Source of the DNA: Minisyncoccota bacterium
Lineage (GTDB): Bacteria > Patescibacteriota > Minisyncoccia > Minisyncoccales > GCA-002788555
Length of the DNA: 56,630 nt
Direction: 5' to 3'
NCBI GenBank assembly: GCA_028716825.1
Contig: JAQUPA010000002.1
Location: forward strand, 1 to 56,630
The translations under genes were made by a program, and so were the position numbers. This document shows positions 1 to 26,009 of the stretch, in pieces (the first letter of the stretch is position 1; each line of letters begins with the position of its first letter). Under the pieces are notes generated by a model. It saw only the letters and a program-made list of their open reading frames with translations, did no database searches and was not told the DNA's origin.

Positions 1-92
1 ATTTTAAAGATGGAAAATTATCTGCAAACACAAAAAAAGGACATGCAAATAAAAAAACAAATATAAATATTATATATGTTTTTTTTATCATA

Positions 93-689: not shown

Positions 690-773
690 AATTTTATATT
701 TTTAATTTTTATTAATCCAATAATAAATTTTTCTATTTTAACATTATTAAATTTTATTTTCAAATTACACTAC

Positions 774-804
774 AAAAAAATCGGCTCGTTGGAGCCGATT
801 TTTT
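774..804 (-). terminator. intrinsic terminator after the receiver-domain gene (symmetrical, could act in both directions)
   Basis: 8-bp stem ATCGGCTC/GAGCCGAT (780-787/792-799), loop GTTG, flanked by an A7 run and a T6 run. Confidence 0.7.
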
Positions 805-820
805 GTGGTATTCTTTTTTA

Positions 821-1204
821 TTATTTTAGTTCTTCTCCGAGTTCTTTTCTTATAAGATTAACCAAGTCTTTTGTTGTAGTGCTGGCTTTTAAAACGTATC
901 TTGTATTATACTCTTGAGCAATTTTTCTCACTTCTGGCGTGTCGTAGTTTGAATAAAGAATAACTGGAATATCTTTTGTTTGTGGATCTGCTTTAAGTTT
1001 CCTTAGAGCGTCTGTTCCGTCCATATTAGCGTCTGGTAAAATAATATCAAGTAATATTAAGTCTGGCTTCTCCTCTTTTGCAATGGCAACGCCACTCTCT
1101 GCGTCTATAGAACGAGAAACTTCATAACCTTCTACTTTAAGCCGTTCGCCATACATTTCAGCAAGTACTTTCTCATCCTCTATCATTAATATTTTCTTTG
1201 CCAT
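821..1204 (-). CDS. single-domain response regulator (CheY-like receiver)
   Basis: MIEDE acidic pocket, phospho-acceptor context LILLDIILPD, conserved Lys (VLKAS); no output domain. Confidence 0.85.
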   Translation of the reverse strand: MAKKILMIEDEKVLAEMYGERLKVEGYEVSRSIDAESGVAIAKEEKPDLILLDIILPDANMDGTDALRKLKADPQTKDIPVILYSNYDTPEVRKIAQEYNTRYVLKASTTTKDLVNLIRKELGEELK

Positions 1205-1206
1205 AT

Positions 1207-1240
1207 AATTACTACGAATTTACTAATAATTACGAATATA
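1207..1240. repeat. inverted copy of the 18-mer found upstream of the GxxExxY gene
   Basis: TACGAATTTAC (1213-1223) + 7 nt + TACGAATATA (1231-1240). This equals the reverse complement of TATATTCGTAAATTCGTA, interrupted by a short insertion. Confidence 0.7.
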
Positions 1241-1263
1241 CTTATTATATTATAACAAAACCT

Positions 1264-1659
1264 TTATAAATTTAAAATACGTTTAAACTTTACGCCATTA
1301 TTTGTAAAATTGACCAAAAGCCCTAATTTTAATTTTCTCGCTTTTAAATATGCATAAACTTGTTCTATGTCTTTTCTTGAAAATCTATCCCCCTTTTTAA
1401 TTTCTAATATTATTTTATCTTCTATCAAAAAGTCAAGAAAATATCTGCCTATCTTTTCATCTAAATATTTTAAAGGCACCAAAACTTGCTCTTGAAAATT
1501 CAATTTTTCTTTTTTAAAAACTGCTGCAATAGCTCTCTGGTAATATTTTTCTTGGTAGCCAACGCCTAAATTGTTATATACTTCAAACATTATTCCAATA
1601 ATTCTATAGCTCAATTCTGGATAAATCAAATCTGTTTTTATTATCTTTGTCTTGTCCAT
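1264..1659 (-). CDS. GxxExxY family protein (family typically found inside 23S rRNA intervening sequences)
   Basis: motif GVGYQEKYY (GxGxxExxY); 131 aa; N-terminal LIYPELSYRIIG typical of the family as I remember it. Confidence 0.7.
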   Translation of the reverse strand: MDKTKIIKTDLIYPELSYRIIGIMFEVYNNLGVGYQEKYYQRAIAAVFKKEKLNFQEQVLVPLKYLDEKIGRYFLDFLIEDKIILEIKKGDRFSRKDIEQVYAYLKARKLKLGLLVNFTNNGVKFKRILNL

Positions 1660-1695
1660 TATATTCGTAAATTCGTATATATTCGTAAATTCGTA
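1660..1695. repeat. perfect 18-bp tandem duplication abutting the GxxExxY start codon
   Basis: TATATTCGTAAATTCGTA at 1660-1677 and again at 1678-1695; the ATG of 1264..1659 is at 1659-1657. Confidence 0.9.
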
Positions 1696-1702
1696 GGAAC
1701 TA

Positions 1703-3328
1703 TCAAAAATCTTTTAAAAATTTCTGCATTTTAGCTCCATTTATCGGCAATTCTACATAAAAGAGACTTCCCTTGCCTCTCCCTTCGCTCTTTGCCCAAA
1801 TTTTTCCTTTGTGCGCCTCAACTAATTTTTTGGCAACATAAAGCCCAACGCCAGAACCCTCAGGAAATAATCTTACGCCAGTTCCTCTCCTGTAAATTTT
1901 AAAAAGCTGACTCATATCTTTTTTGGAAATTCCCATACCAGTATCTGAAACAGTAATTAATATTCTTTTTTGTGTTCCGTTTTTTTCTTCAACTTTTACC
2001 TCAACATTACCATGGTCAGTATATTTAATTGCATTGTCAATTAAATTTAAAACAACTAATCTTATTTTTTGAGGGTCAATTGTAATTTTAGATAAATCCT
2101 TCTCGGGTTCTTTGTATATAAGTTTAAGTTTTTTCTTTGATGCCCTTACATAAAGTTCATCTACTATACTTTGGATAAGATCTTCAAGTTGGGTTTCTTT
2201 AAATTCAAACTCCATTCTTCCCATCTCAAGACGAGATATGTCCAAAAGCGAATTTACCAATCTTATAAGTCTTTCACTTGAATCATTAACTTTATCAAGC
2301 GTTACTCTTACTTTATCTGAAATATCTCCATAAATTCCCTCTTGTACCATTGCAACATATCCTTTAATCGCGGTTAAAGGAGTTCTTAGCTGGTGAGATG
2401 CAATTGACAAGAACTCGGTTTTTGCCTCGTCTAATCTTTTAAGTTCTTTATTGGCTGCTTCAAGTTGTTCTTTTAATTCTATCTCCCGCAAAACACTTCT
2501 TATTAATAGATATCCAAAGAAACAATAAAAAAGGAAAAGTCCGCTATTTAAAATTCTCATAGCCATACTTGGAGCAACAATAGCTTGGAATAATAAAATT
2601 AGTCCAATTAAGCCTACGAATAGTTCTGTCAAAACTACCCTAATTCCAAAAAGTTTTTTAGATATAATTGCAAAAGCCGTAAAACCAACAAAGAAAAGAG
2701 TAAAATATGGTCCAAACTGAGATGGTTCAAATGCTCCGAAAAATAAAGGAATTAAAAAATTTGTAAATGTAGCCAGAGTGCCTGCGACAATCAAGCCTAT
2801 TGCTAAATATTTTAACTGAAGTCTTTCTATTCCTTTTAAACGAATATATTTCCTTACTAATATTGCAAAAGCCATTATAATATAAGCGAGAAAATAAAGT
2901 GCAAATACAATAACAAAATTTCCGAAAACTAAATCTACTCCAACATTTTTTTTCATTGCTATATCTTTCACAATTAAGTCAGTAAATGTTAAAACAACAA
3001 CAAATAGAGCGGGTAATATTATCAATAATTTCTTTTTTAACGACATTTTTTTCTCTTGTCGAGGAAATATCATCGTAAAAATTAAGAGACCCAAAGCAAA
3101 AAGACCTGTAGTCGTAAAGGTTAATTTTGTTGCTATTAAAGTATGAGGATAGTTTTTTACGTGGTCCGCGGCAAAATTACTTATAATCCATGCAACAATA
3201 AAAAGAACCGTGAGAGCAAAAACCTGATTAACTCTCTTCTTTTTGTTTGTCCAAAAAACAATGAATGCTAAAACAAAGTTTATAATCAAAACTATAAAAA
3301 AAGTAGCCCAAATTAATATCTCAATCAT
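1703..3328 (-). CDS. sensor histidine kinase with a polytopic N-terminal membrane domain
   Basis: H-box SIASHQLRTPLT, N-box DNAIKYT, G-boxes DTGMGI and GSGVGLYV; about 270 aa of repeated hydrophobic helices at the N-terminus. Confidence 0.9.
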   Translation of the reverse strand: MIEILIWATFFIVLIINFVLAFIVFWTNKKKRVNQVFALTVLFIVAWIISNFAADHVKNYPHTLIATKLTFTTTGLFALGLLIFTMIFPRQEKKMSLKKKLLIILPALFVVVLTFTDLIVKDIAMKKNVGVDLVFGNFVIVFALYFLAYIIMAFAILVRKYIRLKGIERLQLKYLAIGLIVAGTLATFTNFLIPLFFGAFEPSQFGPYFTLFFVGFTAFAIISKKLFGIRVVLTELFVGLIGLILLFQAIVAPSMAMRILNSGLFLFYCFFGYLLIRSVLREIELKEQLEAANKELKRLDEAKTEFLSIASHQLRTPLTAIKGYVAMVQEGIYGDISDKVRVTLDKVNDSSERLIRLVNSLLDISRLEMGRMEFEFKETQLEDLIQSIVDELYVRASKKKLKLIYKEPEKDLSKITIDPQKIRLVVLNLIDNAIKYTDHGNVEVKVEEKNGTQKRILITVSDTGMGISKKDMSQLFKIYRRGTGVRLFPEGSGVGLYVAKKLVEAHKGKIWAKSEGRGKGSLFYVELPINGAKMQKFLKDF

Positions 3329-3361
3329 AAATAAATAGAATAATTATATTATTATATTCAA

Positions 3362-3404
3362 AACAAAAGCAAAATGCCAGGCTGCAATATAAGCCCGCCT
3401 GGCA
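3362..3404 (-). terminator. intrinsic terminator after the LuxI-like gene
   Basis: minus strand reads TGCCAGGC-14 nt-GCCTGGCA followed by TTTTGCTTTTGTTT. Confidence 0.7.
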
Positions 3405-3406
3405 TC

Positions 3407-4093
3407 TTACAAGGAACTGTTTAGGACTGCGTTTGCTTCCTCCACCACTTCTTCTTCAATGACATCGCCGTTGAGATACTCGTAAAGTGGGGGATTTTCC
3501 AGGAAAGCTGCATTGGCCTTATCGCGTGGAAGAACCACTGGAGCAGTCAAGCTGCCCATATAGTACTTCGGTTCCCCTATCTCCTCAAATGGGAAACCAA
3601 GAAAGCGAATAAGACCAAGAACAACAACATCAAGGCTTGCAAACCAATGAGTGATGTTCTTTTCGTACCAAGTCTCTCGGTAAAGCGCTCTGATCAAGGC
3701 AAGAGATATTGAATGCCTCGCGTACATAGAACGCTCTTCCATGTTCAACGCCTTAAAGACGTCGGAACATATCAATCGAGAGATTTCGCAAGATTTTTCC
3801 GCTTTAGGCGGAAAATAGCATTCCGGAAAATCCCTATAGATTGGCAGAGGCAAGTCTTTTGTTGGATAGATCGCCCTCACCATTCCTATAATTCCACTTT
3901 TCACCGGCAATCCATCTCTATAGGCGATGAAGGTCGAAGATCTTTCGGGAGAATCATATTCGTCCTGTTCTGAACGAAATGAGTAATTGTTGGCTAACCA
4001 CCCTAGCTTCCCCACATAGATCTCGTATCGAAGTCGATATGACGCATTTAGCTCCTTTCTCGTCTCTGCTTTTTTTACCACTAAGACAGACAT
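3407..4093 (-). CDS. LuxI-like / N-acyl amino acid synthase-like acyltransferase (GNAT-related fold)
   Basis: YRLRYEIYVGKLGW near the N-terminus, acidic EQDEYD and EISRL resemble the autoinducer-synthase / N-acyl amino acid synthase family. ATG preceded by GGGAGGTGA. About 47-53% GC in sampled lines. Confidence 0.45.
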   Translation of the reverse strand: MSVLVVKKAETRKELNASYRLRYEIYVGKLGWLANNYSFRSEQDEYDSPERSSTFIAYRDGLPVKSGIIGMVRAIYPTKDLPLPIYRDFPECYFPPKAEKSCEISRLICSDVFKALNMEERSMYARHSISLALIRALYRETWYEKNITHWFASLDVVVLGLIRFLGFPFEEIGEPKYYMGSLTAPVVLPRDKANAAFLENPPLYEYLNGDVIEEEVVEEANAVLNSSL

Positions 4094-4194
4094 TTAGTTT
4101 CACCTCCCTTCTGCAGTCCTCTTATTGTAACGTGCTTGTGTATCTTTATTAAAAATGACTGCAATACATTATAATATTACAATCAGATATTTAA

Positions 4195-4223
4195 ATTCTA
4201 TCATATTTTATTAATAATGTCAA
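4195..4223 (-). promoter_or_regulatory. sigma70-like promoter for the LuxI-like gene
   Basis: minus strand TTGACA (4223-4218), 17-nt spacer, TAGAAT (4200-4195); about 100-nt leader. Confidence 0.6.
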
Positions 4224-4226
4224 TTT

Positions 4227-4258
4227 AAAAAAGCGGGGTAGCACTTTCGCACTACCCC
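4227..4258 (-). terminator. intrinsic terminator overlapping the ThiF-like stop codon
   Basis: minus strand GGGGTAG..CTACCCC stem followed by GCTTTTTT. Confidence 0.7.
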
Positions 4259-5019
4259 ATGGGATCGAATTGAACAACGAACGGGAGCTCATGACCCTTT
4301 ACGGTCTTGATTACGACAGAAACCGTAAGGATTGAAGCTATCCAAGCCGCTATCACTGGCTGAGGATAATGCTCAATTTCCCCTTCAATCACCTGTCCGA
4401 GAACAGGCAGAAAGTAGGGATTAAGCTCTACCCTCTTTGCCATGTTGAACATCAACTCCCAAACAGAGATTTTCTCGAGTTCCTGTGGGATAATCCCCTG
4501 AGGGATACCCAAAAGGTTTTCGAATGTCTCTCCGTTCGGAGTCAGGCAGAAAAGAACTGATCCCCACCCGACATCAATCGGGTAAAGAAAGATCTTTTTC
4601 TGCCGACGGCAAGCCCTTGCAAGCTCCAAAGAGGCGGAGATTCCCGGATCCGGGTCGATACCATCGATTACTATGTCGCACTTAGCAACAAAATCAGTGG
4701 CGTTGTCCGGTTTGATAAAATCCGCCCAGGCCTCTACCCTCACATCAGGATTAATCCTGGAAAGGACGTCTATCAGGACAATTGCTTTTTCCTTCCCAAC
4801 GTCCTCCAGAAAGAAAGCCTGGTGATTTAGGTTCGCTACCTCGACTGTATCAGGGTCAGCCCAAACGAAGTTTTCCACCCCAAGTCGGCACAAAGCCTCT
4901 GCTACGAACGATCCCATTCCGCAGCCAGCAATACCGACAGTGAGTTCTCGCAAGCTCCTCTGTTCCTCCTCTGAAAGGAGGCCAGCATTGCGAGAAATGA
5001 GTTCCTTATAACGGAACAT
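4252..5019 (-). CDS. ThiF/MoeB/HesA-family E1-like adenylyltransferase (adenylation domain only)
   Basis: Rossmann GIAGCGMGSFVAEAL followed by ADPDTVEVANLNHQ (the usual NLxRQ Arg is His). 255 aa with no peptide-clamp, rhodanese or CxxC extension. ATG with GAAAGGAGG. Confidence 0.7.
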   Translation of the reverse strand: MFRYKELISRNAGLLSEEEQRSLRELTVGIAGCGMGSFVAEALCRLGVENFVWADPDTVEVANLNHQAFFLEDVGKEKAIVLIDVLSRINPDVRVEAWADFIKPDNATDFVAKCDIVIDGIDPDPGISASLELARACRRQKKIFLYPIDVGWGSVLFCLTPNGETFENLLGIPQGIIPQELEKISVWELMFNMAKRVELNPYFLPVLGQVIEGEIEHYPQPVIAAWIASILTVSVVIKTVKGHELPFVVQFDPMG

Positions 5020-5054
5020 TCTAATCGACCTCCTTTCTTCGTATATCGATTAGA
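5020..5054 (-). promoter_or_regulatory. hairpin enclosing the ThiF-like ribosome-binding site
   Basis: mRNA reads TCTAATCGA-TATACGAAGAAAGGAGG-TCGATTAGA-ATG. The 9-bp perfect stem is 5054-5046/5028-5020. The SD sits at the 3' edge of the loop and the stem arm fills the SD-ATG spacer. Confidence 0.5.
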
Positions 5055-5076
5055 TTTTTTAGGTTCTGTATTTTAT

Positions 5077-5105
5077 ATTATACACCGCTTAATTGAAAAA
5101 GTCAA
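5077..5105 (-). promoter_or_regulatory. sigma70-like promoter for the ThiF-like gene
   Basis: minus strand TTGACT (5105-5100), 17-nt spacer, TATAAT (5082-5077). Confidence 0.65.
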
Positions 5106-5133
5106 ACAAAAACGCAGGTTCCCCTGCGTTTTA
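5104..5133 (-). terminator. intrinsic terminator inside repeat copy A
   Basis: minus strand AAAACGCAGG-GGAA-CCTGCGT-TTTTGTTTG; 7-bp perfect stem. Confidence 0.75.
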
Positions 5134-5157
5134 GATTATTTTTTAAAAAGATTAATT

Positions 5158-5203
5158 AATCCCAAGTTCCTCTGCTACTTTTGGATTAAGTTCTGTTGTA
5201 ATT
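5158..5203 (-). pseudogene. orphan duplicate of the last 15 codons of the NUDIX gene
   Basis: 45/46 nt identical to 7933-7978, which encode ITTELNPKVAEELGI of 7930..8364; no upstream continuation of that reading frame. Confidence 0.8.
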
Positions 5204-5976
5204 TAAATTTTTATTTCCTTAAACAATTTTTTATGAACTTTAATCACTCGATATGACTCTTTTAAAAAATCTTCAAAATTATCATTCTTAGTAATTTTAT
5301 TATATAGGTCGGTAAAATACTTTGGAACGGTTTTACCGCCTATTTTTATTTTTCTGTATTCCGTATAAAAAACTGCTTTTTTCTTTAATAATTTCTGGAT
5401 GCGACTATCATTTAAAACTATGGGCGCAATAATTTCACTTAAATGCCATTCAATATAGGGAAATTCAAATTTTTCAGAATTCATTTTTGGATGCATATTT
5501 TTCCATTTTTCAAAATACAAAAAATGACAACATTCATGCATAATAATCTCCATCGCATCTTTGATATTTTTGTAATTAAAATATATAAAAAAACTCCAGT
5601 CGTTTAAAAAACGCGGGCAAATAGGATTAATAGATATCATTGCTTTAATTATGTCTCTGTTTAAGGGCCAAGTGATTTGTAAAATTTCTGAAAGTAAAAT
5701 AAAAAAATCTTTTTCAGTTTTTCGCCAATTTTTTTCATATCTAACCTTATTTTTATTTATTATTTTTTGATTCTCTTCTCTGGTTTCAAAAATATATCCT
5801 TTTAAAAATTTGACTTTTTCCTTCTCGTTTTTAAAAGAAAAAACTTCTTTGATCTTAGGATGCTTTTTAATTATATACTTATCCCACCCCCAATTATCTT
5901 GAATTAAAAAACTGTGCATCCAATCAACTTCTTTAAGTAATGTAATGTTTATAAATTTTACTTTTGGAGTAAACAT
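5203..5976 (-). CDS. hypothetical protein with an HExxH motif (possible zinc metallopeptidase)
   Basis: IIMHECCHFLYFEKW contains HExxH; about 18% GC in a sampled line. ATG at 5976-5974 immediately follows the T-tract of the rSAM terminator. No family recognised. Confidence 0.35.
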   Translation of the reverse strand: MFTPKVKFINITLLKEVDWMHSFLIQDNWGWDKYIIKKHPKIKEVFSFKNEKEKVKFLKGYIFETREENQKIINKNKVRYEKNWRKTEKDFFILLSEILQITWPLNRDIIKAMISINPICPRFLNDWSFFIYFNYKNIKDAMEIIMHECCHFLYFEKWKNMHPKMNSEKFEFPYIEWHLSEIIAPIVLNDSRIQKLLKKKAVFYTEYRKIKIGGKTVPKYFTDLYNKITKNDNFEDFLKESYRVIKVHKKLFKEIKI

Positions 5977-6025
5977 ATAAAAACCCTAATTCTGTCAAGA
6001 TTATACCATAAATAGAATTAGGGTT
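5977..6025 (-). terminator. intrinsic terminator after the radical SAM/SPASM gene
   Basis: 12-bp perfect stem AACCCTAATTCT/AGAATTAGGGTT (6025-6014/5993-5982), 20-nt loop, then TTTTAT running into the next ATG. Confidence 0.65.
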
Positions 6026-6034
6026 AAAAGGAAT

Positions 6035-7438
6035 TTAATTTTCTGTCGAAGGAAAGGATGTTTTGGGATCCATTTTTTCTATTAGATCCCGAATCAGAAA
6101 TTCGGCCGTCGCTTTAGCATGAACACAGAAAATATCGTCTACCTCCCAAATACTACCTTTACTTTTGTAGGCACTGTAGGGACAACCTCCTCCGCAGATA
6201 CTTAAAGCAATACAGTTATAGCACTGTTCCATAAAAAGTGGGGAACGGAATTTCCATTCTTCCCAAATAGGATGATTGAAGGGATCAAAGGTAATATCTG
6301 GGTGAATAAAATATTTTCTACTTCCGCAATATCCCTGACAGACTCCAACCATACCATCTGGAGCTATAACTATTTGCTCGCCACAACCGCCACAATCATT
6401 GTAATAAATGTAGCCTTCAACAAAAGCATTTACTTTTCGCATTATTCTGTCTTCATAAATCCCCTTTTCTCTAAAGAAACGGTAACACTTAATAATCTGT
6501 TTAGCAACCTTTTCGGCATATACTTTAGCATCTCCACGAATACCTTCTATGCCAATACTTTCTATCAAAATGTTAAAGCTTATCGAGGTTGCACCCAATT
6601 CATTTACAAACCACTTAGAAATCTCTTCCAATTGTTCTACATTGTATTGACTGATTGTACAACAAATCCCCGTATTAACTCCGTTTTTAACAAGAAGCTG
6701 ATAGCCCCTTATGGTATCATCAAAAGATCCATGGCCATCACGACGTCTACGACACTTATCATGAATTTCCTTGGGACCATCCAACGAAACTGCCACATTA
6801 ACATTTCCAAAGCTTCTAAGCGTTAAAGCAATTGTTTCGTTAATTAATGCACCATTTGTATTTATTGTGATAAAGGTAGTGGAAGGAAGGGTTTTTTTAC
6901 TTTTTAGGCTTTCAATATACCTGAGCATTCTTTCAACTACCTCGAAGTTTAGAAATGGTTCGCCTCCATAGAATATTATCTGAGGAGTCTCTACGGTACT
7001 GTTTTTACCTATTAATTTTGCGAATAAATCAATACCGAACTGGGCAGTTTTTGTCGACATCTTAGAAAATTGGTAGTTTTCTGGTATTGCACCCTCAATG
7101 AAGCAATAAATGCAGGCAAGATTGCAAACATCTGTCATGAGCAGATAAAGTATACCAATTTCCTTGTTTCTAAATTTCGTTTGAATCTTTGCGTATTCTT
7201 CAAGGTCAAGACGTCGATCTAATGGAAAAACAAGCTTGTGTCTTGTTAGTTCGCTAACAAGATTATCGTCTAAAGAGTTAATTTGATCATAAGAGATAAT
7301 CTTGTGTTTAGCCTGCCTAAAAAGCTTTGCCGTTTCTTTATCAACAATAACTACATCTAAAGTAAGTGCATTGTATAAAGCCGTCAGGTTATTGATTCCT
7401 TCTACAAAATGACAAAAATCAGAAATTCTTAAATTCAT
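6035..7438 (-). CDS. radical SAM / SPASM-domain peptide-modifying enzyme
   Basis: CNLACIYC (C105, C109, C112 = CxxxCxxC); C-terminal CGGCGEQ and CYNCIALSICGGGC (Cx2Cx5Cx3C) SPASM pattern. The approximately 95-aa N-terminal extension is the size of a RiPP recognition element. ATG preceded by AGGAGG. Confidence 0.9.
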   Translation of the reverse strand: MNLRISDFCHFVEGINNLTALYNALTLDVVIVDKETAKLFRQAKHKIISYDQINSLDDNLVSELTRHKLVFPLDRRLDLEEYAKIQTKFRNKEIGILYLLMTDVCNLACIYCFIEGAIPENYQFSKMSTKTAQFGIDLFAKLIGKNSTVETPQIIFYGGEPFLNFEVVERMLRYIESLKSKKTLPSTTFITINTNGALINETIALTLRSFGNVNVAVSLDGPKEIHDKCRRRRDGHGSFDDTIRGYQLLVKNGVNTGICCTISQYNVEQLEEISKWFVNELGATSISFNILIESIGIEGIRGDAKVYAEKVAKQIIKCYRFFREKGIYEDRIMRKVNAFVEGYIYYNDCGGCGEQIVIAPDGMVGVCQGYCGSRKYFIHPDITFDPFNHPIWEEWKFRSPLFMEQCYNCIALSICGGGCPYSAYKSKGSIWEVDDIFCVHAKATAEFLIRDLIEKMDPKTSFPSTEN

Positions 7439-7525
7439 TATTCAACCTCCTGTAATCGTTCTTGACACTCTATATTATAAAAATGGGGCAAGAAGAATTC
7501 TCTCTTACCCCTGTGGCACAGATCA

Positions 7526-7702
7526 TCAACTACTCCTCGTTCTGGTCTTTGTCCCAGGAGAATTCTCGCAGTAACACGTTCCTCCGCAGATTCCCCCGCA
7601 ACGCATCTGCATTCCATCCTTTACTTTGCCCCTGATAAGGGCAAACTGTTTCTCCGTCGGCACTAGAACCACAACGTTCTTCGGTTCCTTCTTGTTTTCC
7701 AC
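7526..7702 (-). CDS. candidate Cys-rich RiPP precursor peptide (58 aa, not in the ORF track)
   Basis: GTG at 7702-7700 with AGGAGG 10 nt upstream, TGA at 7528-7526. Translation: MENKKEPKNVVVLVPTEKQFALIRGKVKDGMQMRCGGICGGTCYCENSPGTKTRTRSS. Ends 87 nt upstream of the rSAM/SPASM gene. Confidence 0.55.
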   Translation of the reverse strand: MENKKEPKNVVVLVPTEKQFALIRGKVKDGMQMRCGGICGGTCYCENSPGTKTRTRSS

Positions 7703-7798
7703 GTTCTCTCACCCTCCTTTCGCCTTCTTTATGTTCCTTCGCTTCCTTTTCTCTTATTAAAATTTCAAGGTTCAAAAAACTACTCAAAAACTACTAAT

Positions 7799-7826
7799 AT
7801 TTTATAATAATCACCCAAATTGTCAA
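7799..7826 (-). promoter_or_regulatory. sigma70-like promoter for the precursor-rSAM unit
   Basis: minus strand TTGACA (7826-7821), 16-nt spacer, TAAAAT (7804-7799), followed by a purine-rich leader. Confidence 0.55.
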
Positions 7827-7878
7827 ATATTTGGACAAAACAAGTATCATTTCATCAATTCATTTTTTATTAAAAGTC

Positions 7879-7906
7879 AAACCAAAAGCACGGGATTCCC
7901 CCGCGC
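7879..7906 (-). terminator. intrinsic terminator of the NUDIX gene (inside repeat copy B)
   Basis: minus strand GCGCGGG-GGAAT-CCCGTGC-TTTTGGTTTG. One pair is G-U on the minus-strand RNA and would be an A-C mismatch on the plus strand. Confidence 0.7.
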
Positions 7907-7929
7907 TAAGCTATTTTAAAGGTAAAGTG

Positions 7930-8364
7930 TTAAATCCCAAGTTCCTCTGCTACTTTTGGATTAAGCTCTGTTGTAATTAAACTCTTTATGGCTTCTGGTT
8001 TAACCCATTTAATTTCCGCTACTTCATGCGCTTCTTTTGGATTTGCAATGGGTTTTTCATTGTTTAGGGTACAAAGGTGATAAATAATTATAACTGAAAT
8101 CTGGGGATGAAAAGAAAGGTCTATTTGCTTTGTTGAAGTAACATCATATCCAGTCTCTGCTAAGACTTCCCTTCTTACGGCTTCCTCTCTTTCTTCGTTT
8201 GAAAATTGTTTTCCGCCGGGGAAAGCCCATTCTAAAATTGCGCCATCTTTACCTTTCTCCGGCTTTTTTCTTCTTATCATTAAAACCTCTCCTTTTTTAT
8301 TTAAAACTACACCTAAATTTATAAGCTTATTTGATTCTATAACTTTATTAGATTTTTTAGGCAT
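7930..8364 (-). CDS. NUDIX hydrolase
   Basis: Nudix box GGKQFSNEEREEAVRREVLAETGY (Gx5Ex7REUxEExGU). Confidence 0.85.
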   Translation of the reverse strand: MPKKSNKVIESNKLINLGVVLNKKGEVLMIRRKKPEKGKDGAILEWAFPGGKQFSNEEREEAVRREVLAETGYDVTSTKQIDLSFHPQISVIIIYHLCTLNNEKPIANPKEAHEVAEIKWVKPEAIKSLITTELNPKVAEELGI

Positions 8365-8434
8365 GTTGTTATCTTAATTTACTTTTAATTTACATTATAA
8401 AGATCTATTGTCAATAAAATTTAAACAATGAGTA

Positions 8435-8463
8435 TTGACAAATTCTTATTTTTTTTGTAAAAA
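8435..8463 (+). promoter_or_regulatory. plus-strand sigma70-like promoter
   Basis: TTGACA (8435-8440), 17-nt spacer, TAAAAA (8458-8463); the only convincing plus-strand promoter I found in the window. Confidence 0.5.
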
Positions 8464-8464
8464 A

Positions 8465-8945
8465 TATGATTGTGGAAAAACCATAACGTTCAGCTCTTTG
8501 AAAGGAAGATAAAAGACCACCGCTCGCTTAACGAAAAAGAAATCTGTAAGGAACGCTACAGCAATTCTGATTTCTGCAACAATTGTGACAGAATCTATCC
8601 CAATAAAAGGAATATAGAAAGTGTTCAAGATTAAGAAAGGAGTGATGCGCAACGAAAGTAGATCCAGATCCAGAAAAAACCTGCAAAGAGAACCAACCCG
8701 GTAAGTGGAAAGAATGTGGTAAACTTTGGGTCTCAAACGGAAACCAAAAACAAGCCATACAAAAGCTTACAGAGAACTGTCCAACAAGCTGCCCCTGGCA
8801 CTTCAATAACTCACCTTACGCAGTAAACAGAACAATAACAGCAATGGTGGTTAATTCTCACCGGGGTTCCTTTGACTGGTCTGAATGACAATCTTCCGGG
8901 GTAACAAATAGGGCCTAGTGTAATACGCTAGGCCTTTCGTCTTTT
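8465..8945 (+). ncRNA. structured non-coding RNA of unassigned class (weak rnpB-like blocks)
   Basis: About 480 nt with no credible ORF and higher GC than its flanks. It has a promoter upstream and a terminator at 8910-8945 (stem GGCCTAG/CTAGGCC extended by G-U pairs valid only on the plus strand, then TTTCGTCTTTT). Hairpins at 8470-8486 and 8538-8575. Confidence 0.45.
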
Positions 8946-8958
8946 AACTTATAAACTG

Positions 8959-10989
8959 CTATTGCCTTACTTTCCACTGAGGGTTTTTTTCGAGATTCTT
9001 TATAATATTTTTTTGAACTTTATCAACTTCTTTTGAAGAAAGGGTCTTTTTTTCTGACTGATAAATTATATGAAAAGACAGGCTTTTGTTTTTTTCTTTT
9101 TGATTGATATCCTCTTGATAAATGTCAAAAACTTCAACGTTTCTTATAATTTCTCCTCCTGTAGAATAAATTTTCTGGATAATTTCTCCTGCCAGAACAT
9201 TCTCAGGAACAACAACGGAAATGTCTCTTATCGTTTCTGGATAGACTGAAGGTTTTTTATACTCATGCTCCCCTTCAATTAAGTCTAGAAGTGTTTTAAA
9301 GTTAATTTCAAAAGCAAAAACGGGTATTTTTATATTATAAAAACCAAGAATTTTTTTTGATACTTCTCCCAAAAATCCTATCTTTTTATTTCCAGTCTCG
9401 ATTTCAGCTGATTTACCTTTCTCCCAGAAAATATTTTTTTCTTTTGTGTGACCGTAGAAAACATCAACCATCCCAAGTTCTTCAAAAAAACTTTCAAGAA
9501 GCCCTTTAAGCTCGTAAAATTCGGTTTTGCCTGCGATAATACCAGCAAAAAATCTTTTTTCTTTTTCTTTAAAAATATTTCCAATTTCAAAAAATCTAAC
9601 ATCTTTAAATCTCTTCTGGTTTAAAGTCACTGCTTTTAAGAGATTACAAATTAAAGAAAACCTTAGATATTTAGTATTTGAACTAATAGGGTTACCAAGT
9701 TCTGTTAGTTTTAATTTTTTGTTTAATTTTTTGAAAAAATCTCCTTCGTTATCTGAAATAAAAGAATAATTATAGGTCTCTGTAAAACCAAGCCCTTTCA
9801 TTAGTGTTCTTATTTTTTTAACCCATAAAAGATCTAAATTCTTTGGTGGCAATGCCTTTTGTAAAATTGAAAAAGTGGATGGTATGTTCTCGTATCCAAA
9901 AATCCTTCCAACTTCTTCAATTAAATCTTCTGGAATGCAAATATCTCGCCTAAAAGTAGGAATTTTTAAAATTAAGACAGCTTCTGATTCTCGCTGAATT
10001 TCAAATCCTAAATCCTTAAATATCTTTACTACTTTATCTTTTGAAATTTTAATTCCCAAGAGACTTCTTAGATAATTAAGATCAATTTTTATAATATTTG
10101 GGAAAGTCTTTTTTGGATAAAAATCCAAGACGCCAGATTTAATATCTCCCCCTGCAATTTCTTTTATAAGGCCTGCGACTTTATCTATCGCTTCTCTAGC
10201 TAAATTAGGGTCAATATTTGCGGAAAAACGCATTGAAGCATCTGTTTGTAATTTAAGTTTCTTTGACGTTCTATAAATACTAACACCGTTAAAATTCGCA
10301 GACTCTAAAATTATTCTCTTTGTATTTTTTTTAATTTCTGCTTTTTTCCCGCCCTTAATGCCTGCGATTGCAATTGGATATTTTGCATCAGCAATCACCA
10401 AATTATCTTTATCAAGGGTATATTTCTTGTCTTCTAAGGTGGTAATTTTTTCGCCTCTTTTTGCCTTTCTTACAATAATTTCTTTTTTTTCTTTTTTACC
10501 AAAAAGCTTTTCATAATCAAAAGCATGAAGAGGCTGGCCCGTTTCTAACATAATATAATTTGCAGCATCTACTATATTATTTATCGACTGAACACCACAG
10601 CTTTCTATCTTTTGTTTTAACCATTTTGGGGATGGAGCAACTTTAACATTATCAATTATCCTTGCGCAGTATCTCTGGCAAAGATCTTTACTTTTTATTT
10701 CAATCTTTAAAATATCAGCTGTTTTAATTTTCTTTTCTTCGCTAAATTTATATTCTGGTGCTTTAAATTTATATCCTAAGATTGCAGAAATTTCTCTTGC
10801 AATTCCAATATGAGAAGAACAATCCGGCATTCTGTCTGGTAAAACATCGATATCTAAAATCCAATCATCGCTTTTTTTAATTAAATCTTCTACTTCTAAT
10901 GTATGCATCATTAAAAGATCTGCCAATTTCTCTGGATTGGGTAATTTTTTTTGAAAAAATAATTGTAACCAGTTATATGAAAATTTCAT
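8959..10989 (-). CDS. pheT: phenylalanine--tRNA ligase beta subunit
   Basis: MKFSYNWL N-terminus, B3/4 and B5 region, position immediately after pheS. Confidence 0.9.
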   Translation of the reverse strand: MKFSYNWLQLFFQKKLPNPEKLADLLMMHTLEVEDLIKKSDDWILDIDVLPDRMPDCSSHIGIAREISAILGYKFKAPEYKFSEEKKIKTADILKIEIKSKDLCQRYCARIIDNVKVAPSPKWLKQKIESCGVQSINNIVDAANYIMLETGQPLHAFDYEKLFGKKEKKEIIVRKAKRGEKITTLEDKKYTLDKDNLVIADAKYPIAIAGIKGGKKAEIKKNTKRIILESANFNGVSIYRTSKKLKLQTDASMRFSANIDPNLAREAIDKVAGLIKEIAGGDIKSGVLDFYPKKTFPNIIKIDLNYLRSLLGIKISKDKVVKIFKDLGFEIQRESEAVLILKIPTFRRDICIPEDLIEEVGRIFGYENIPSTFSILQKALPPKNLDLLWVKKIRTLMKGLGFTETYNYSFISDNEGDFFKKLNKKLKLTELGNPISSNTKYLRFSLICNLLKAVTLNQKRFKDVRFFEIGNIFKEKEKRFFAGIIAGKTEFYELKGLLESFFEELGMVDVFYGHTKEKNIFWEKGKSAEIETGNKKIGFLGEVSKKILGFYNIKIPVFAFEINFKTLLDLIEGEHEYKKPSVYPETIRDISVVVPENVLAGEIIQKIYSTGGEIIRNVEVFDIYQEDINQKEKNKSLSFHIIYQSEKKTLSSKEVDKVQKNIIKNLEKNPQWKVRQ

Positions 10990-10991
10990 AA

Positions 10992-11960
10992 TTAAAATTG
11001 ATTAAGAAAGCGAATATCGCTGCTGTAAAATAAACGTATATCGTCAATATTATATTTAATCATTGAAAGTCTATCTATGCCAAAACCAAATGCAAATCCC
11101 TGCCAATCTTTAGGGTTAAGTTTTGCGTTTTTAAGAACATTGGGATGTACCATACCAGCTCCTGCGCATTCAAGCCACTTTCCGTTTTCTCCCCTTATAT
11201 CAATCTCAAAACTTGGTTCTGTAAAAGGAAAAAATCCTGGCCTCATTCTGACATCAACTTTTCTTCCAAAAAATTCATTAAAAAAGTTTTGGATAACTGC
11301 TCTAAAATCAACAACAGAAGTTTCTTTTTCTATCATCAATCCCTCTAACTGATAAAACTGAACTTCATGAGATACATCAGTTGCTTCATTACGAAAAACC
11401 CTACCAGGAACAACAATCCTTAAAGGAGGATTATTTTTTTCCATATAGCGCACTTGGACTGGAGAGGTATGCGTTCTCATCAACCTCCTTTTTTCTTTGA
11501 GCCATAAAGTATCTTGTATATCTCTTGCGGGGTGATCTTTTGGGAAATTTAAAGCATCAAAGTTATAACATTCATTTTCAATCTCAGGCCCCTCAACAAC
11601 AGAAAATCCCATTCTTTCAAAAATATCTTCACACTTTTCTAAAACTTGGGATAAGGGATGAATATGACCTCTTTGTAATTTTTTACCTGGTAAAGAAATA
11701 TCAATAAATCTATCTTCTTTAAAAGAAATTTTCTTTTCAATTTGGACTTTCTTCTCTTTAAAGAATTTTTCAGTCTCTTCTTTGAGTTTGTTAATCTCCT
11801 GTCCTTTCTTTTTTCTTTCTGCCTGAGAAAGACTACCGATTTCTTTAAATAATTGGTTGATTTTACCTTTTTTTGCTAAATATTTAATACGAAGCTGCTC
11901 TAATTCTTTTAAAGAAAGAGCTTTTTCGATTTCACTTTTAATTTGTTTTTTTAAATCCAT
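10992..11960 (-). CDS. pheS: phenylalanine--tRNA ligase alpha subunit
   Basis: class II motifs FRNEATDVSHEVQFYQLEG and GFAFGFGIDRLSMI. Confidence 0.95.
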   Translation of the reverse strand: MDLKKQIKSEIEKALSLKELEQLRIKYLAKKGKINQLFKEIGSLSQAERKKKGQEINKLKEETEKFFKEKKVQIEKKISFKEDRFIDISLPGKKLQRGHIHPLSQVLEKCEDIFERMGFSVVEGPEIENECYNFDALNFPKDHPARDIQDTLWLKEKRRLMRTHTSPVQVRYMEKNNPPLRIVVPGRVFRNEATDVSHEVQFYQLEGLMIEKETSVVDFRAVIQNFFNEFFGRKVDVRMRPGFFPFTEPSFEIDIRGENGKWLECAGAGMVHPNVLKNAKLNPKDWQGFAFGFGIDRLSMIKYNIDDIRLFYSSDIRFLNQF

Positions 11961-12020
11961 AACAAAAATTAAGCTTATTTTTATAATAGTAACAAAAAAA
12001 CGAGAAATTGAAAATAGTAA

Positions 12021-12332
12021 TTACTTTCTTGGCATTGTGGATAATTCTATTATTTTTTCGATATTATCAGTCTTTACTGTCTTTATACGGTGATTCTTGT
12101 CGCATTTTTGACACTTATAATAAATTATATATTCTCCTGATCTTTTCTCTGCTGAAATTGGCTCCATTAAGCCTTTGCAATCGCATTTTCTATCTCCTGG
12201 ATTTATATCTAAATGCTTTGACCAAAGGCATCTTGGACAATGATCAGTATAGCCCGTTCCCTTAACAGAAAAACCACATTTTTCACAGATAAAATCCTCT
12301 TTTTTCTTTTGAAATATTTTTTGCTTCAACAT
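12021..12332 (-). CDS. RNHCP-domain zinc-ribbon protein
   Basis: CEKCGF...HCPRCLWSKH...CDCKG...YKCQKCDKNH; layout matches my memory of the RNHCP domain family. Confidence 0.55.
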   Translation of the reverse strand: MLKQKIFQKKKEDFICEKCGFSVKGTGYTDHCPRCLWSKHLDINPGDRKCDCKGLMEPISAEKRSGEYIIYYKCQKCDKNHRIKTVKTDNIEKIIELSTMPRK

Positions 12333-12347
12333 TTTCTATAATAAAAG

Positions 12348-12389
12348 AAAAAACAGGCCCGAGGCCCTTTTTTCTTATAAAAATTTTGT
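12348..12389. repeat. 42-bp perfect direct repeat, copy 1
   Basis: AAAAAACAGGCCCGAGGCCCTTTTTTCTTATAAAAATTTTGT, identical to 16612-16653. It contains a GGCC/GGCC hairpin flanked by A6/T6, plus the stop and last four codons (TKFL) of 12375..13439. Confidence 0.95.
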
Positions 12390-13439
12390 CTCATTGTTTA
12401 TAACTTTTATAAATAATTCCTCTTCCCAATTTTTTCTAAATATTATATTTTTACTAGGTATTATTTTATCTAAAAAAAGAATGTAATTTGAATGTTTAAT
12501 TGCTCTTTTCGATTTTGGAAACAAAGCAATTTTTATTGGTTTTCCTCCTCTTTTTTTTACTTTTCGTTCAAGATAGTCAAGTGTATTACTTGAATAAGAC
12601 CTATCGATGATTGAGATTTTTTTATTTCTTAAATCTTTTCTGAATAATTCCATTTCTTTTGTCATATCTAAACTTAAATGACACTCCCACAACATTATCT
12701 TCTTTTTTATTCCTATCTCCTCTATAAAACCAAGGGCATATTTCAATCCTGCCTTTGGTATAAAAATATAAATGTCGCTTTTCGGTAATGTCTTAAAAAA
12801 ACCAAAAATAGCAAACCTAGGAAAGTTAATTTTCCCAAAAATAGAATATTCTTTTTTGAGACGGGAATAAAAATCTTTTGTCTTAAAACAGCACCTTTTA
12901 ATTTCTTTATTTTTTATTTTAATTTCTCGTTCTTTTATTATAGCCTTTATTTTTTTTAATTCTTTTTTCCAATGATTTGTTTTTTTAATTTTATAATAAA
13001 TAAATTTGGGAATTTGATTTATTCTATTATCAGAACCAGCGATTCTAATTTCTAAGTTAGAATGTGGTCCTTCTAAATAAACAATTTCGAGATTCTTAAA
13101 TCTAGATGAAATGTCTTTTTTAAACGAATAATGAACTTTTTCAGAAGTGAAAAGTTTATGCAGAGTAAATATCTCTGCCAAATTTAAAGTTGGATTTATA
13201 TAATTTTCACTGAGATCACAAAGCACTACCTCTGGTGCACGTAAAATATACCTATATTTTCCGGGATAAAAAGACCATCCCTTGCTCAGTTTATCTGCAA
13301 GTTTATCTCTATCTGTAGTAATGTCTATAAAATTACTTTTAAAATGGGGCTTATTGTAAACAAGAATACCATTTTTTAATTCCTGAACTGGCTTAAGTGT
13401 ATTATAAGTTTCGTCTAATAAACCTTCTTTATCTATCAT
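12375..13439 (-). CDS. hypothetical protein, weak phosphoribosyltransferase-like C-terminus
   Basis: KKISIIDRSYSSNTLDYL loosely resembles a type I PRTase PRPP loop. ATGA start/stop overlap with 13436..14698. The last four codons lie in the 42-bp repeat. Confidence 0.35.
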   Translation of the reverse strand: MIDKEGLLDETYNTLKPVQELKNGILVYNKPHFKSNFIDITTDRDKLADKLSKGWSFYPGKYRYILRAPEVVLCDLSENYINPTLNLAEIFTLHKLFTSEKVHYSFKKDISSRFKNLEIVYLEGPHSNLEIRIAGSDNRINQIPKFIYYKIKKTNHWKKELKKIKAIIKEREIKIKNKEIKRCCFKTKDFYSRLKKEYSIFGKINFPRFAIFGFFKTLPKSDIYIFIPKAGLKYALGFIEEIGIKKKIMLWECHLSLDMTKEMELFRKDLRNKKISIIDRSYSSNTLDYLERKVKKRGGKPIKIALFPKSKRAIKHSNYILFLDKIIPSKNIIFRKNWEEELFIKVINNETKFL

Positions 13440-14698: not shown

Positions 14699-14704
14699 TT
14701 TAGT

Positions 14705-26005: not shown

Positions 26006-26009
26006 AGAT

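What the first reader, a model, noticed from the sequence alone, without database searches (positions are those of the whole stretch)
6035..7826. Unlisted 58-codon Cys-rich ORF in front of a radical SAM/SPASM enzyme: candidate thioether-type RiPP cassette
The ORF track offers only an 85-aa, TTG-initiated, K/E/R-rich ORF here (7530..7787). A different minus-strand frame runs from GTG (7702) to TGA (7526). It encodes MENKKEPKNVVVLVPTEKQFALIRGKVKDGMQMRCGGICGGTCYCENSPGTKTRTRSS. AGGAGG lies 10 nt upstream of the GTG, and a TTGACA-16-TAAAAT promoter sits at 7826-7799, ahead of a purine-rich leader. Four Cys are packed into an 11-residue core (CGGICGGTCYC) after a leader-like stretch of about 34 aa. 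A radical SAM enzyme starts 87 nt downstream. It has CxxxCxxC, a full SPASM Cys pattern and an RRE-sized N-terminal extension, and the unit closes with a 12-bp-stem terminator. This is the standard layout of sacti-/ranthipeptide (SCIFF-like) systems. It is unexpected in a reduced, CPR-like backbone. The unit is self-contained (own promoter and terminator), and sampled lines range from about 32% to 53% GC, highest over the precursor, against about 25-30% in the backbone.
Basis: partly seen in the sequence, partly recalled or inferred. Interest (0 to 1): 0.8.

Follow-up and report, generated by a model that had tools for sequence, protein, structure and literature searches.

The report
Cysteine-rich peptide with radical SAM maturase
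The small unlisted gene is real: it encodes the precursor of a modified peptide, sits in front of its radical SAM tailoring enzyme and a likely zinc protease, and belongs to a large, uncharacterised family that is common, not rare, in ultra-small (CPR) bacteria.

Summary
The 58-codon GTG ORF (7526..7702, minus strand) is the coding frame. It is open, with third-position-biased substitutions, in five related loci. The listed 85-aa frame carries 3 stops in each of the four relatives.

The enzyme 87 nt downstream is a radical SAM/SPASM maturase with CX3CX2C, eight invariant C-terminal Cys fitting the SPASM pattern, and a predicted N-terminal peptide-recognition (RRE-like) domain. Its best solved-structure matches are TigE and CteB.

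Almost every related enzyme locus I fetched that has flanking DNA (34-70% identity) carries an adjacent Cys-rich ORF. These share a leader motif, roughly (V/I)VPxxxDFxx(I/L)(K/R)G...G(M)xMRC. A strong hairpin follows the precursor stop codon in most loci checked.

A third conserved gene, 5203..5976, encodes an HExxH...E protein with no Pfam family. It accompanies the enzyme in 61 of 83 loci and is probably the leader protease. A 7TM histidine kinase recurs nearby.

The family is typical of Patescibacteria rather than unexpected there, and the unit is not self-contained.

The closest named system is the in-silico FibroRumin system, but both components score below its cut-offs. The crosslink chemistry, probably thioether, is inferred and not shown.

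The parts
7799..7826 (-). Sigma-70-like promoter, TTGACA-16-TAAAAT
   Evidence: It matches 11 of 12 consensus positions. The -35 box is identical and the -10 is TAGAAT in sister strain L109. A terminator-like hairpin of the upstream NUDIX gene lies just before it, at 7907..7887.
7703..7798 (-). 5' leader, purine-rich in its 3' half, with the AGGAGG ribosome-binding site at 7713..7718
   Evidence: Read directly from the sequence. It has no significant structure (z +0.28) and no Rfam match even at E<=1.
7526..7702 (-). Precursor peptide gene, 58 aa. Leader: ..VVLVPTEKQFALIRGKVKDGMQMR. Core: CGGICGGTCYC. C-terminal tail: ENSPGTKTRTRSS.
   Evidence: ORF listed. Homologues are P0121/L001, L002, L022 and L109. 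Supporting tests: codon-position bias, frame test, family-wide leader alignment and leader HMM at E 7.6e-11.
7476..7511 (-). Terminator-like hairpin plus U-run between precursor and enzyme, a probable attenuator that sets the peptide:enzyme ratio
   Evidence: Called by the terminator scan: 10 pairs followed by ATTTTTAT. A strong stem directly after the precursor stop codon occurs in most of 33 related loci, although the sequences differ.
6035..7438 (-). Radical SAM/SPASM peptide maturase, 467 aa, with an N-terminal RRE-like domain (about residues 1-90). Its own AGGAGG lies at 7446..7451.
   Evidence: Pfam Radical_SAM 1.7e-18. NCBIfam best hit is TIGR04136 at 268.7 bits, then PapB, CefB, nif11 and SCIFF maturases. 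Invariant Cys listed. PDB profile hits are CteB and TigE. The AF2 model has pLDDT 86 and beta-beta-beta-alpha-alpha-alpha at residues 9-66. Foldseek top hits are TigE 1.5e-21 and CteB 2.1e-20 over the full length.
5982..6025 (-). 12-bp-stem hairpin between the enzyme and the next gene
   Evidence: dG -15.3 kcal/mol, z -2.98. The loop is 20 nt and contains a TATAAT-like hexamer. The U-run abuts the ATG at 5976, so this is not the end of the unit.
5203..5976 (-). Conserved third component, 257 aa: an HExxH...E zincin-like protein with no Pfam family, the probable leader or tail peptidase
   Evidence: Adjacent to the enzyme in 61 of 83 loci, 42 of them directly downstream on the same strand. H147 and E148 are invariant in 44/44 sequences, H151 in 36/44 and E181 in 44/44. 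The AF2 model has pLDDT 86. Foldseek finds no significant hit, but the top of the list is gluzincin peptidases: M61, M1, M32, selecase, IrrE. There are 657 representatives in the 1.84-billion-protein library. No Pfam hit.
4252..5019 (-). ThiF-family E1-like adenylyltransferase, 49-50% GC. Possible accessory gene, linkage unproven.
   Evidence: Pfam ThiF 1.5e-30. GC. Not found in the other family loci. Present in the sister strain.
3407..4093 (-). FeeM / autoinducer-synthase-like GNAT acyltransferase, 43-46% GC. Possible accessory gene.
   Evidence: Pfam FeeM 5e-05 and TIGR03694 1.4e-18, both below their cut-offs. A FeeM-like gene occupies the same position in L002, between the zincin-like gene and the kinase.
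1703..3328 (-). 7TM-type histidine kinase, with a response regulator at 821..1204. Recurrent neighbour of the module.
   Evidence: Pfam HisKA_7TM, HisKA and HATPase_c, and Response_reg for 821..1204. A homologous kinase lies within a few genes of the module in 9 of 34 non-redundant loci that have at least 4 kb of flank, often directly adjacent.

Best explanation
This is a three-gene RiPP module of a large family specific to CPR (candidate phyla radiation) bacteria.

1. Transcription (inferred). It starts at the promoter at 7826..7799. The 58-aa precursor is translated from the GTG at 7702. A hairpin with a U-run after its stop codon lets only part of the transcripts continue into the enzyme gene.

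2. Recognition (inferred from homology). The N-terminal RRE-like domain of the radical SAM/SPASM enzyme binds the conserved leader (VVLVPTEKQFALIRGKV..GMQMR).

3. Chemistry (inferred from homology). The CX3CX2C cluster cleaves SAM. The resulting 5'-deoxyadenosyl radical abstracts a hydrogen from an acceptor residue. A core Cys thiolate, positioned by the SPASM auxiliary clusters, closes a thioether. With four Cys (CGGICGGTCYC), up to four crosslinks are possible. Whether the sulfur bonds to C-alpha (sacti-type) or to C-beta/C-gamma (ranthi-type) cannot be told from sequence.

4. Processing (inferred). The downstream HExxH...E protein then removes the leader, possibly next to the conserved MR|C junction, and perhaps the conserved C-terminal ..TR tail.

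5. Role (weakest step). No exporter is encoded. The variable cores and the recurrent 7TM histidine kinase neighbour suggest a signalling or interaction peptide rather than a cofactor.
For: - Precursor reality and family.
- Enzyme class: radical SAM motif and eight invariant C-terminal Cys fitting the SPASM pattern. NCBIfam ranks RiPP maturases first: FibroRumin at 269 bits, then PapB, CefB, nif11 and SCIFF at about 135 bits.
- Solved relatives: PDB profile hits are CteB (thioether) at 3e-32 and TigE at 8e-28, the latter covering the N-terminal domain. Both are used as RRE reference structures in PMC12710340.
- Predicted fold: beta3-alpha3 N-terminal domain and full-length Foldseek matches to TigE, CteB, SuiB and anSME.
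- Target residue: Cys is the only residue class common to all cores, which carry 3 to 16 Cys. That points to Cys as the modified residue.
- Attenuator: the hairpin is conserved in position across most related loci checked.
- Zincin-like partner.
- Kinase recurrence.
Against: - No chemistry is shown. The second-best structural and sequence relative, TigE, makes cyclopropylglycine rather than thioethers (PMC10878394), so similarity alone does not fix the reaction.
- The enzyme scores below the trusted cut-off of every named NCBIfam maturase family.
- The Pfam SPASM model is not matched at E 0.01.
- The peptidase role of the 257-aa protein rests on a motif and on non-significant Foldseek hits (best E 0.16).
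- The closest relatives of that protein (about 70% identity) sit next to a different radical SAM enzyme (24% identity), next to a decayed one, or next to none. It is therefore not strictly dedicated to this enzyme.
- No transporter or immunity gene is present.
Confidence: 0.7

Rival explanations
1. The pair is a real RiPP precursor and maturase, but the enzyme does not make thioethers. It could install C-C crosslinks, cyclopropyl groups, epimerisation or Cys oxidation (formylglycine-like). The Cys would then serve as metal or disulfide ligands of the product.
For: TigE (cyclopropyl synthase, PMC10878394) is as close as CteB in sequence and fold. anSME, DynA and the cyclophane synthases YhhB/AmcB also score. 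An Ile in CGGIC is conserved in all four members of the subclade.
Against: Cores across the family share only Cys. Aromatic and branched residues are not conserved. The nearest named relatives (FibroRumin, PapB, CefB, nif11 maturase, SCIFF maturase) all pair with Cys-rich targets, and where characterised (PapB, CteB) they form Cys thioethers (established knowledge).
Confidence: 0.2
2. The peptide is a scaffold for a small redox cofactor or metallophore, as in PQQ or mycofactocin. The enzyme would crosslink a few conserved residues, and the zincin-like protein would excise a small molecule.
For: The gene set has the same logic as PqqA/E/F and MftA/C/E: a peptide, an RRE-bearing radical SAM/SPASM enzyme and a peptidase, with no exporter. 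The C-terminal ..(T)R tail is conserved.
Against: Cofactor precursors keep their reacting residues fixed. Here core length (6 to more than 50 residues) and Cys number (3-16) vary widely even between close enzymes. Some loci carry several enzymes.
Confidence: 0.07
3. The 58-aa ORF is a chance reading frame and the enzyme acts on something else.
For: Gene callers missed it or chose another frame: the window's own ORF track, and the Logan call in L109.
Against: Frame conservation, third-position bias, the position-specific leader motif and its adjacency to the enzyme in dozens of loci all argue against chance.
Confidence: 0.02

Closest known systems
FibroRumin system (NCBIfam TIGR04136 maturase and TIGR04135 Cys-rich target). 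Defined in silico; to my knowledge not characterised.
   Same: Best-scoring family for the enzyme, at 268.7 bits (E 9e-80) and aligned end to end, residues 6-453 against model positions 2-454 of 458. The only precursor model that gives any signal with peptides of this family, at E 0.03-6. Same logic: a small Cys-rich peptide next to an RRE-bearing radical SAM/SPASM enzyme.
   Different: The enzyme is below the 400-bit cut-off. The window peptide gives no hit, and its relatives reach at most 14 bits against a cut-off of 45. The leader motif is distinct, the host range is CPR, and there is a conserved zincin-like third gene.
SCIFF / ranthipeptide systems (CteA-CteB, PDB 5WGG; PapA-PapB)
   Same: Radical SAM/SPASM enzyme with an N-terminal RRE, a Cys-rich core, and no dedicated exporter in the cluster. 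CteB is the best PDB sequence match, and CteB is a top-2 Foldseek match. SCIFF ranthipeptides have been linked to quorum sensing (Chen et al. 2020, cited in PMC12016038).
   Different: The SCIFF maturase model scores 132 against a cut-off of 425, and PapB scores 138 against 340. No precursor-model hit was obtained. The window core has 4 Cys, not 6. The leader is different. SCIFF clusters lack the HExxH partner.
TigE / TvgB cyclopropylglycine synthases (PDB 8VPO)
   Same: Top Foldseek hit (1.5e-21, TM 0.67-0.70) and a full-length profile alignment that includes the N-terminal domain.
   Different: Their substrates are repeat peptides (TIGSVS / TVGG type) modified on Ile or Val. The substrate here is Cys-rich and non-repetitive.
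CPR graspetide gene clusters (Makarova et al. 2022, PMC8939145)
   Same: The RiPP clusters described for CPR bacteria in that paper. Some of those loci also carry a SPASM radical SAM enzyme, a UbiE-like methyltransferase and zincin peptidases. UbiE-like methyltransferases also recur in the loci studied here.
   Different: Those clusters are built around an ATP-grasp ligase and T/S-D/E cores. No ATP-grasp gene was found in the window (Pfam scans of its neighbours), and none was evident by eye among the larger neighbouring ORFs of seven related loci, which were not HMM-scanned.

Membership tests
Radical SAM superfamily (PF04055) | CX3CX2C motif for the SAM-binding [4Fe-4S] cluster, plus an HMM match | tested here: met
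   C105-x3-C109-x2-C112 is invariant in 27 homologues. PF04055 scores 67.8 bits against a cut-off of 29.5.
SPASM subfamily of radical SAM enzymes | C-terminal 7-Cys motif: CX9-15GX4C, a gap, CX2CX5CX3C, a gap, then C | tested here: met
   C352..G362xxxxC367, C406xxC409x5C415x3C419 and C438 are all invariant. Full-length alignments to SPASM enzymes CteB, TigE and anSME. Caveat: Pfam PF13186 did not reach E 0.01.
RRE-dependent RiPP maturases | N-terminal PqqD-like winged-helix domain: three beta-strands followed by three helices | tested here: met
   The AF2 model shows E9-13, E18-23, E28-33, H34-41, H50-54 and H58-66 at pLDDT about 90. The profile alignment to TigE covers residues 4-97. This is a prediction only; leader binding was not tested.
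FibroRumin system | Maturase at or above the TIGR04136 trusted cut-off (400 bits) | tested here: not met
   268.7 bits.
FibroRumin system | Target peptide at or above the TIGR04135 cut-off (45 bits) | tested here: not met
   The window peptide gives no hit at E<=10. Family peptides reach at most 14.2 bits.
SCIFF / ranthipeptide (TIGR03974 maturase; six-Cys-in-45 peptide) | Maturase at or above 425 bits, and a precursor with six Cys in about 45 residues matching the SCIFF model | tested here: not met
   The maturase scores 132.3 bits. The peptide has 4 Cys and no NCBIfam hit.
PapB-type ranthipeptide maturase (NF047865) | Score at or above 340 bits | tested here: not met
   137.7 bits.
Sactipeptides / ranthipeptides (chemical classes) | Cys sulfur linked to C-alpha (sacti) or to C-beta/C-gamma (ranthi) of an acceptor residue | not testable with these tools
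   Requires MS/MS and NMR of the modified peptide.
Gluzincin metallopeptidases (for the 257-aa partner) | HExxH on a helix, plus a downstream Glu on the next helix as the third zinc ligand | tested here: inconclusive
   H147, E148 and E181 are invariant and H151 is kept in 36 of 44 sequences. Both motifs lie on predicted helices, H138-161 and H175-188, which follow strands E109-115 and E128-132. Foldseek's best hits are M61, M1, M32, selecase and IrrE, but at E>=0.16. No Pfam match.

The most novel reading that the evidence does not exclude
The module is the producer half of a peptide signalling circuit that is widespread in CPR bacteria. The crosslinked Cys-rich peptide would be trimmed by the new zincin-like protein. 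In this subclade it might be further modified by the FeeM-like acyltransferase and the ThiF enzyme. It would be released and sensed by the co-localised 7TM histidine kinase and response regulator. That would give ultra-small episymbiotic bacteria a quorum- or host-sensing system of their own. The enzyme may also install a crosslink type not yet described.
Probability: 0.15. Interest if true: 0.8.

Novelty: new variant of a known kind. Interest (0 to 1): 0.55.

Why it matters
CPR/Patescibacteria have very small genomes and are usually reported to have few or no biosynthetic clusters. One survey states that its Patescibacteria MAGs contained none (PMC11613949).

This work shows a peptide-modification module conserved across many CPR lineages, including Komeili-, Falkow- and Azambacteria and WWE3.
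- Its precursors are routinely missed or mis-framed by gene callers.
- It has a recognisable leader motif that could be used for mining.
- It has an undescribed HExxH partner family with 657 representatives in the 1.84-billion-protein library.
- It has a repeated histidine-kinase neighbour.

If the product is a signal or an interaction factor, it would give an experimental handle on how these unculturable symbionts communicate. The enzyme clade is also a candidate source of new radical SAM chemistry.

Tried and rejected
The metagenome scan with an alignment was the productive one.
- **Family models on peptides.** Pfam and NCBIfam gave no hit for the window peptide. Related peptides gave only weak TIGR04135 signals.
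- **Foldseek on the 257-aa model** gave no significant match. Pfam on fused or distant relatives gave nothing useful, apart from one protein with an extra Peptidase_MA_2 domain.
- **Rfam** on 7400..9000 at E<=1 found nothing. The 5' leader is unstructured, so no riboswitch is indicated.
- **Literature.** Searches for FibroRumin, for CPR/Patescibacteria with ranthipeptide, radical SAM or SPASM, and for HisKA_7TM found no description of this family. The library searched is limited to open-access PMC and bioRxiv.
- **Graspetide cluster** was considered and rejected. No ATP-grasp gene was evident in the window's Pfam-scanned neighbours or, by eye only, among the larger neighbours of related loci.
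- **'Recent foreign insertion of a self-contained unit'** was considered and rejected. A sister strain has the same locus, and the downstream gene is a family partner. The locus does look mosaic. The zincin-like gene has backbone-like GC (25%), and its nearest relatives pair with a different radical SAM enzyme.
- **Exact-sequence cluster look-up** gave no organism names.
Full report
**What is in the sequence.**
- AGGAGG lies at 7713..7718, 10 nt before the GTG.
- TTGACA-16-TAAAAT lies at 7826..7799 and matches 11 of 12 consensus positions.
- The next gene starts 87 nt after the peptide stop codon, with its own AGGAGG 7 nt upstream. It encodes a 467-aa protein (6035..7438).
- GC content is 45% over the peptide and 35-39% over the enzyme, against about 23-33% in most flanking windows.
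- The upstream neighbour is a NUDIX gene that ends in a terminator-like hairpin at 7907..7887. The promoter therefore opens a new transcription unit.

**Which frame is coding.**
- One called homologue of the peptide exists in the 5.8-billion-protein collection: P0121, whose core MQMRCGGICGGTCYC is identical. It lies in front of a fragment of a 77%-identical enzyme.
- Uncalled homologues lie in front of the 70%- and 69%-identical enzymes in L002 and L022.
- A 98%-identical sister strain (L109) has the same locus.
- In all four relatives the 58-aa frame is open, while the 85-aa frame offered by the ORF track has three stops.
- In L109 a 1-nt indel upstream of the GTG shifts the 85-aa frame. One of the two substitutions inside the ORF is synonymous only in the 58-aa frame.
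- Window vs L001 differences fall 9/5/24 on codon positions 1/2/3, with 19 synonymous and 11 non-synonymous codon changes.
- The gene caller behind L109 picked the wrong frame, which shows why such genes go unlisted.
- The start codon is the least certain element. In-frame GTGs 10 and 13 codons further in would give 48- or 45-aa products.

**The enzyme.**
- Pfam finds Radical_SAM at 1.7e-18.
- NCBIfam ranks the FibroRumin maturase TIGR04136 first, at 268.7 bits and aligned end to end. PapB, CefB, the nif11-peptide maturase and the SCIFF maturase follow at about 132-138 bits. Every one is below its family cut-off.
- C105/C109/C112 (CX3CX2C) is invariant in 27 homologues. So are eight C-terminal Cys that fit the SPASM pattern: C349/C352..GxxxxC367, C406xxC409x5C415x3C419, C438. 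Pfam's SPASM model itself does not reach E 0.01.
- A family profile hits the solved structures CteB (5WGG, 3.4e-32), TigE (8VPO, 7.6e-28, including N-terminal residues 4-97) and anSME. 8VPO is the cyclopropyl synthase TigE (PMC10878394; PDB title). Both 5WGG and 8VPO serve as RRE reference structures in PMC12710340.
- The AlphaFold model (pLDDT 86) has three strands and then three helices within residues 9-66. Foldseek aligns the whole model to TigE (1.5e-21), CteB (2.1e-20), anSME, SuiB, ChlB and SkfB.
- The architecture of RRE, radical SAM domain and SPASM domain is therefore supported. The specific reaction is not determined.

**A family, not a one-off.**
- The enzyme has 1752 hits at E<=0.001. 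Those that carry a source name naming an organism are Patescibacteria, Komeilibacteria, Falkowbacteria, WWE3 and Azambacteria.
- I fetched 80 metagenomic loci with enzymes 34-69% identical.
- Nearly every locus with upstream DNA has a small Cys-rich ORF on the same strand just before the enzyme. In the loci that seemed to lack one, the ORF lies just after the enzyme.
- The peptides share a leader: two or three hydrophobic residues, then P, three variable residues, (D/Q)F, two variable residues, (I/L/V), (K/R/L), G, and often G(M/I/V)x(M/L)R immediately before the first Cys. The cores have 3 to 16 Cys, commonly CSCTACSSCRCTPC. Many end in a hydrophobic-(T)-R tail.
- A profile of the leaders hits 62 of 82 family loci. 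It hits exactly one segment of the 56.6-kb window and nothing in the unrelated loci, out of 21,793 segments. The profile was built from these same sequences, so its specificity is the informative part, not its sensitivity.
- The window peptide belongs to a low-Cys subclade (window, L109, L001, L002, L022) with the core CGGIC(G/S)GTC(Y/H)C..RTR(S/D).

**Conserved non-coding feature.** The terminator scan calls a 10-pair hairpin plus ATTTTTAT at 7511..7485, between the peptide and the enzyme. Folding the same interval in 33 related loci gives a strong G+C-rich stem directly after the precursor stop codon in most of them, often followed by a U-run, although the sequences differ. This is the arrangement commonly described for RiPP operons, where an attenuator keeps precursor mRNA in excess over enzyme mRNA. 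That reading rests on general knowledge and was not tested here.

**The unit is not self-contained.**
- Clustering all neighbouring ORFs of 83 loci shows one further family, about 250 aa, in 61 loci. It lies 42 times directly downstream on the same strand and 15 times upstream on the same strand. Most of the loci that lack it are truncated.
- The window member is 5203..5976. It starts 5 nt after the '12-bp terminator' at 5982..6025, which is a real stem with a 20-nt loop.
- The family has no Pfam or NCBIfam model and 657 representatives in the 1.84-billion-protein library.
- H147 and E148 (HExxH), E181, W177 and Y204 are invariant or nearly so.
- In the AlphaFold model (pLDDT 86), HExxH and E181 lie on consecutive long helices that follow two short strands.
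- Foldseek finds nothing significant, but its best hits are gluzincin peptidases: M61, M1, M32, selecase and IrrE/PprI.
- I read it as a new zincin-like peptidase that removes the leader and/or the tail. This is an inference.

**Mosaic locus.**
- The zincin-like gene has backbone GC of 25%.
- It has many relatives at 60-73% identity, more than the enzyme has.
- Those relatives sit next to a different radical SAM/SPASM enzyme (432 aa, 24% identical to the window's) preceded by a different Gly/Cys-rich candidate peptide. Others sit next to a decayed SPASM fragment just downstream of a NUDIX gene, or next to no radical SAM gene at all.
- This suggests that precursor-enzyme pairs are exchanged in front of a resident partner gene. 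It fits the compositional step but was not tested further.

**Further neighbours.**
- Downstream in the window lie a ThiF-family gene and a FeeM/autoinducer-synthase-like GNAT (43-50% GC, the strongest anomaly). After them come a 7TM histidine kinase, a PD-(D/E)XK protein and a response regulator.
- L002, the closest long relative, has the order precursor, enzyme, zincin-like gene, methyltransferase, FeeM-like gene, kinase.
- A homologous kinase lies within a few genes of the module, often adjacent, in 9 of 34 non-redundant loci with at least 4 kb of flank.
- No transporter or immunity gene recurs.
- The kinase association is suggestive, but I could not measure it against a genome-wide background.

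**Mechanism.**
- Shown: the genes, motifs, family conservation and predicted folds.
- Inferred: leader binding by the RRE; radical H-abstraction and Cys-thioether formation, by analogy with CteB and PapB and because Cys is the only shared core feature; leader removal by the HExxH protein; attenuation at the hairpin.
- Open: the linkage type, the number of crosslinks, export and biological role.
- Against thioethers: TigE-like chemistry is equally close by sequence and fold.
- Against a cofactor role: the cores vary widely.

**Comparison and novelty.**
- The nearest named system is FibroRumin (TIGR04135/TIGR04136), an in-silico family. Both components fall below its cut-offs.
- The SCIFF and PapB ranthipeptide systems work alike, but their membership tests fail.
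- Makarova et al. 2022 described graspetide clusters in CPR, some with SPASM enzymes, UbiE-like methyltransferases and zincins. [quoted passage not shown] Those clusters are ATP-grasp-centred, and I found no ATP-grasp here (by eye only).
- I found no paper on this radical SAM and Cys-rich peptide family in the searchable library.
- I therefore rate it a new variant of a known kind. It is a real and widespread but uncharacterised radical SAM RiPP family with its own leader and partner protein. It is not an anomaly of this genome.

Noticed in passing
window 8365..8958: A 594-nt stretch between PheT and the NUDIX gene has no convincing ORF, 34-42% GC and strong AT skew. It has no Rfam match at E<=1. 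It is absent from the 98%-identical sister strain, where PheT and NUDIX are 15 nt apart, so it is a strain-specific insertion of unknown nature.
   Followed up: partly
window 3407..5019: The ThiF-family gene and the FeeM/autoinducer-synthase-like acyltransferase reach 43-50% GC against about 23-33% in most flanking windows. This is the strongest compositional anomaly near the finding. The pair is also present in the sister strain (L110). A FeeM-like gene holds the same position in L002, but ThiF does not recur elsewhere.
   Followed up: partly
window 1..56630: Nearly all ORFs of 90 aa or more lie on the minus strand. The few plus-strand ones almost all overlap longer minus-strand ORFs. All five tRNA genes are also on the minus strand, so the whole 56.6-kb window appears to be transcribed in one direction.
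   Followed up: no
L104 4417..5943; L106 4893..6765; L101 6001..6765: The closest relatives of the 257-aa HExxH protein (about 70% identity) pair with a different radical SAM/SPASM enzyme. That enzyme is 432 aa and is preceded by the candidate peptide ..MGRPCCGGSCIGGNCKAV... Other relatives sit next to a decayed 93-121-aa SPASM fragment after a NUDIX gene, or next to no radical SAM gene. This hints at cassette exchange and decay at this locus type.
   Followed up: partly
L109 10644..10826: The public gene call in the sister strain uses the wrong frame (VRERGKQEG..., 60 aa) over the precursor. Precursors of this family are therefore mostly absent or mis-framed in protein databases. Only one homologue was found among 5.8 billion proteins.
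   Followed up: yes
L109 7505..7954: The sister strain carries a roughly 450-nt insert between PheS and PheT. By eye only (no profile search was run), it appears to encode a four-helix-bundle (23S rRNA intervening-sequence-type) protein. In the window these two genes are 2 nt apart.
   Followed up: no
L025, L028; L060, L063-L068, L073: Some related loci hold two or three radical SAM genes of the family. In others the precursor, with 11-16 Cys, lies downstream of the enzyme instead of upstream.
   Followed up: partly
window 1703..3328 and 821..1204; L002, L025, L028, L060, L066, L076, L082, L099: A HisKA_7TM-type histidine kinase, sometimes with a response regulator, lies adjacent to or within a few genes of the peptide module in 9 of 34 non-redundant loci with at least 4 kb of flank.
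   Followed up: partly
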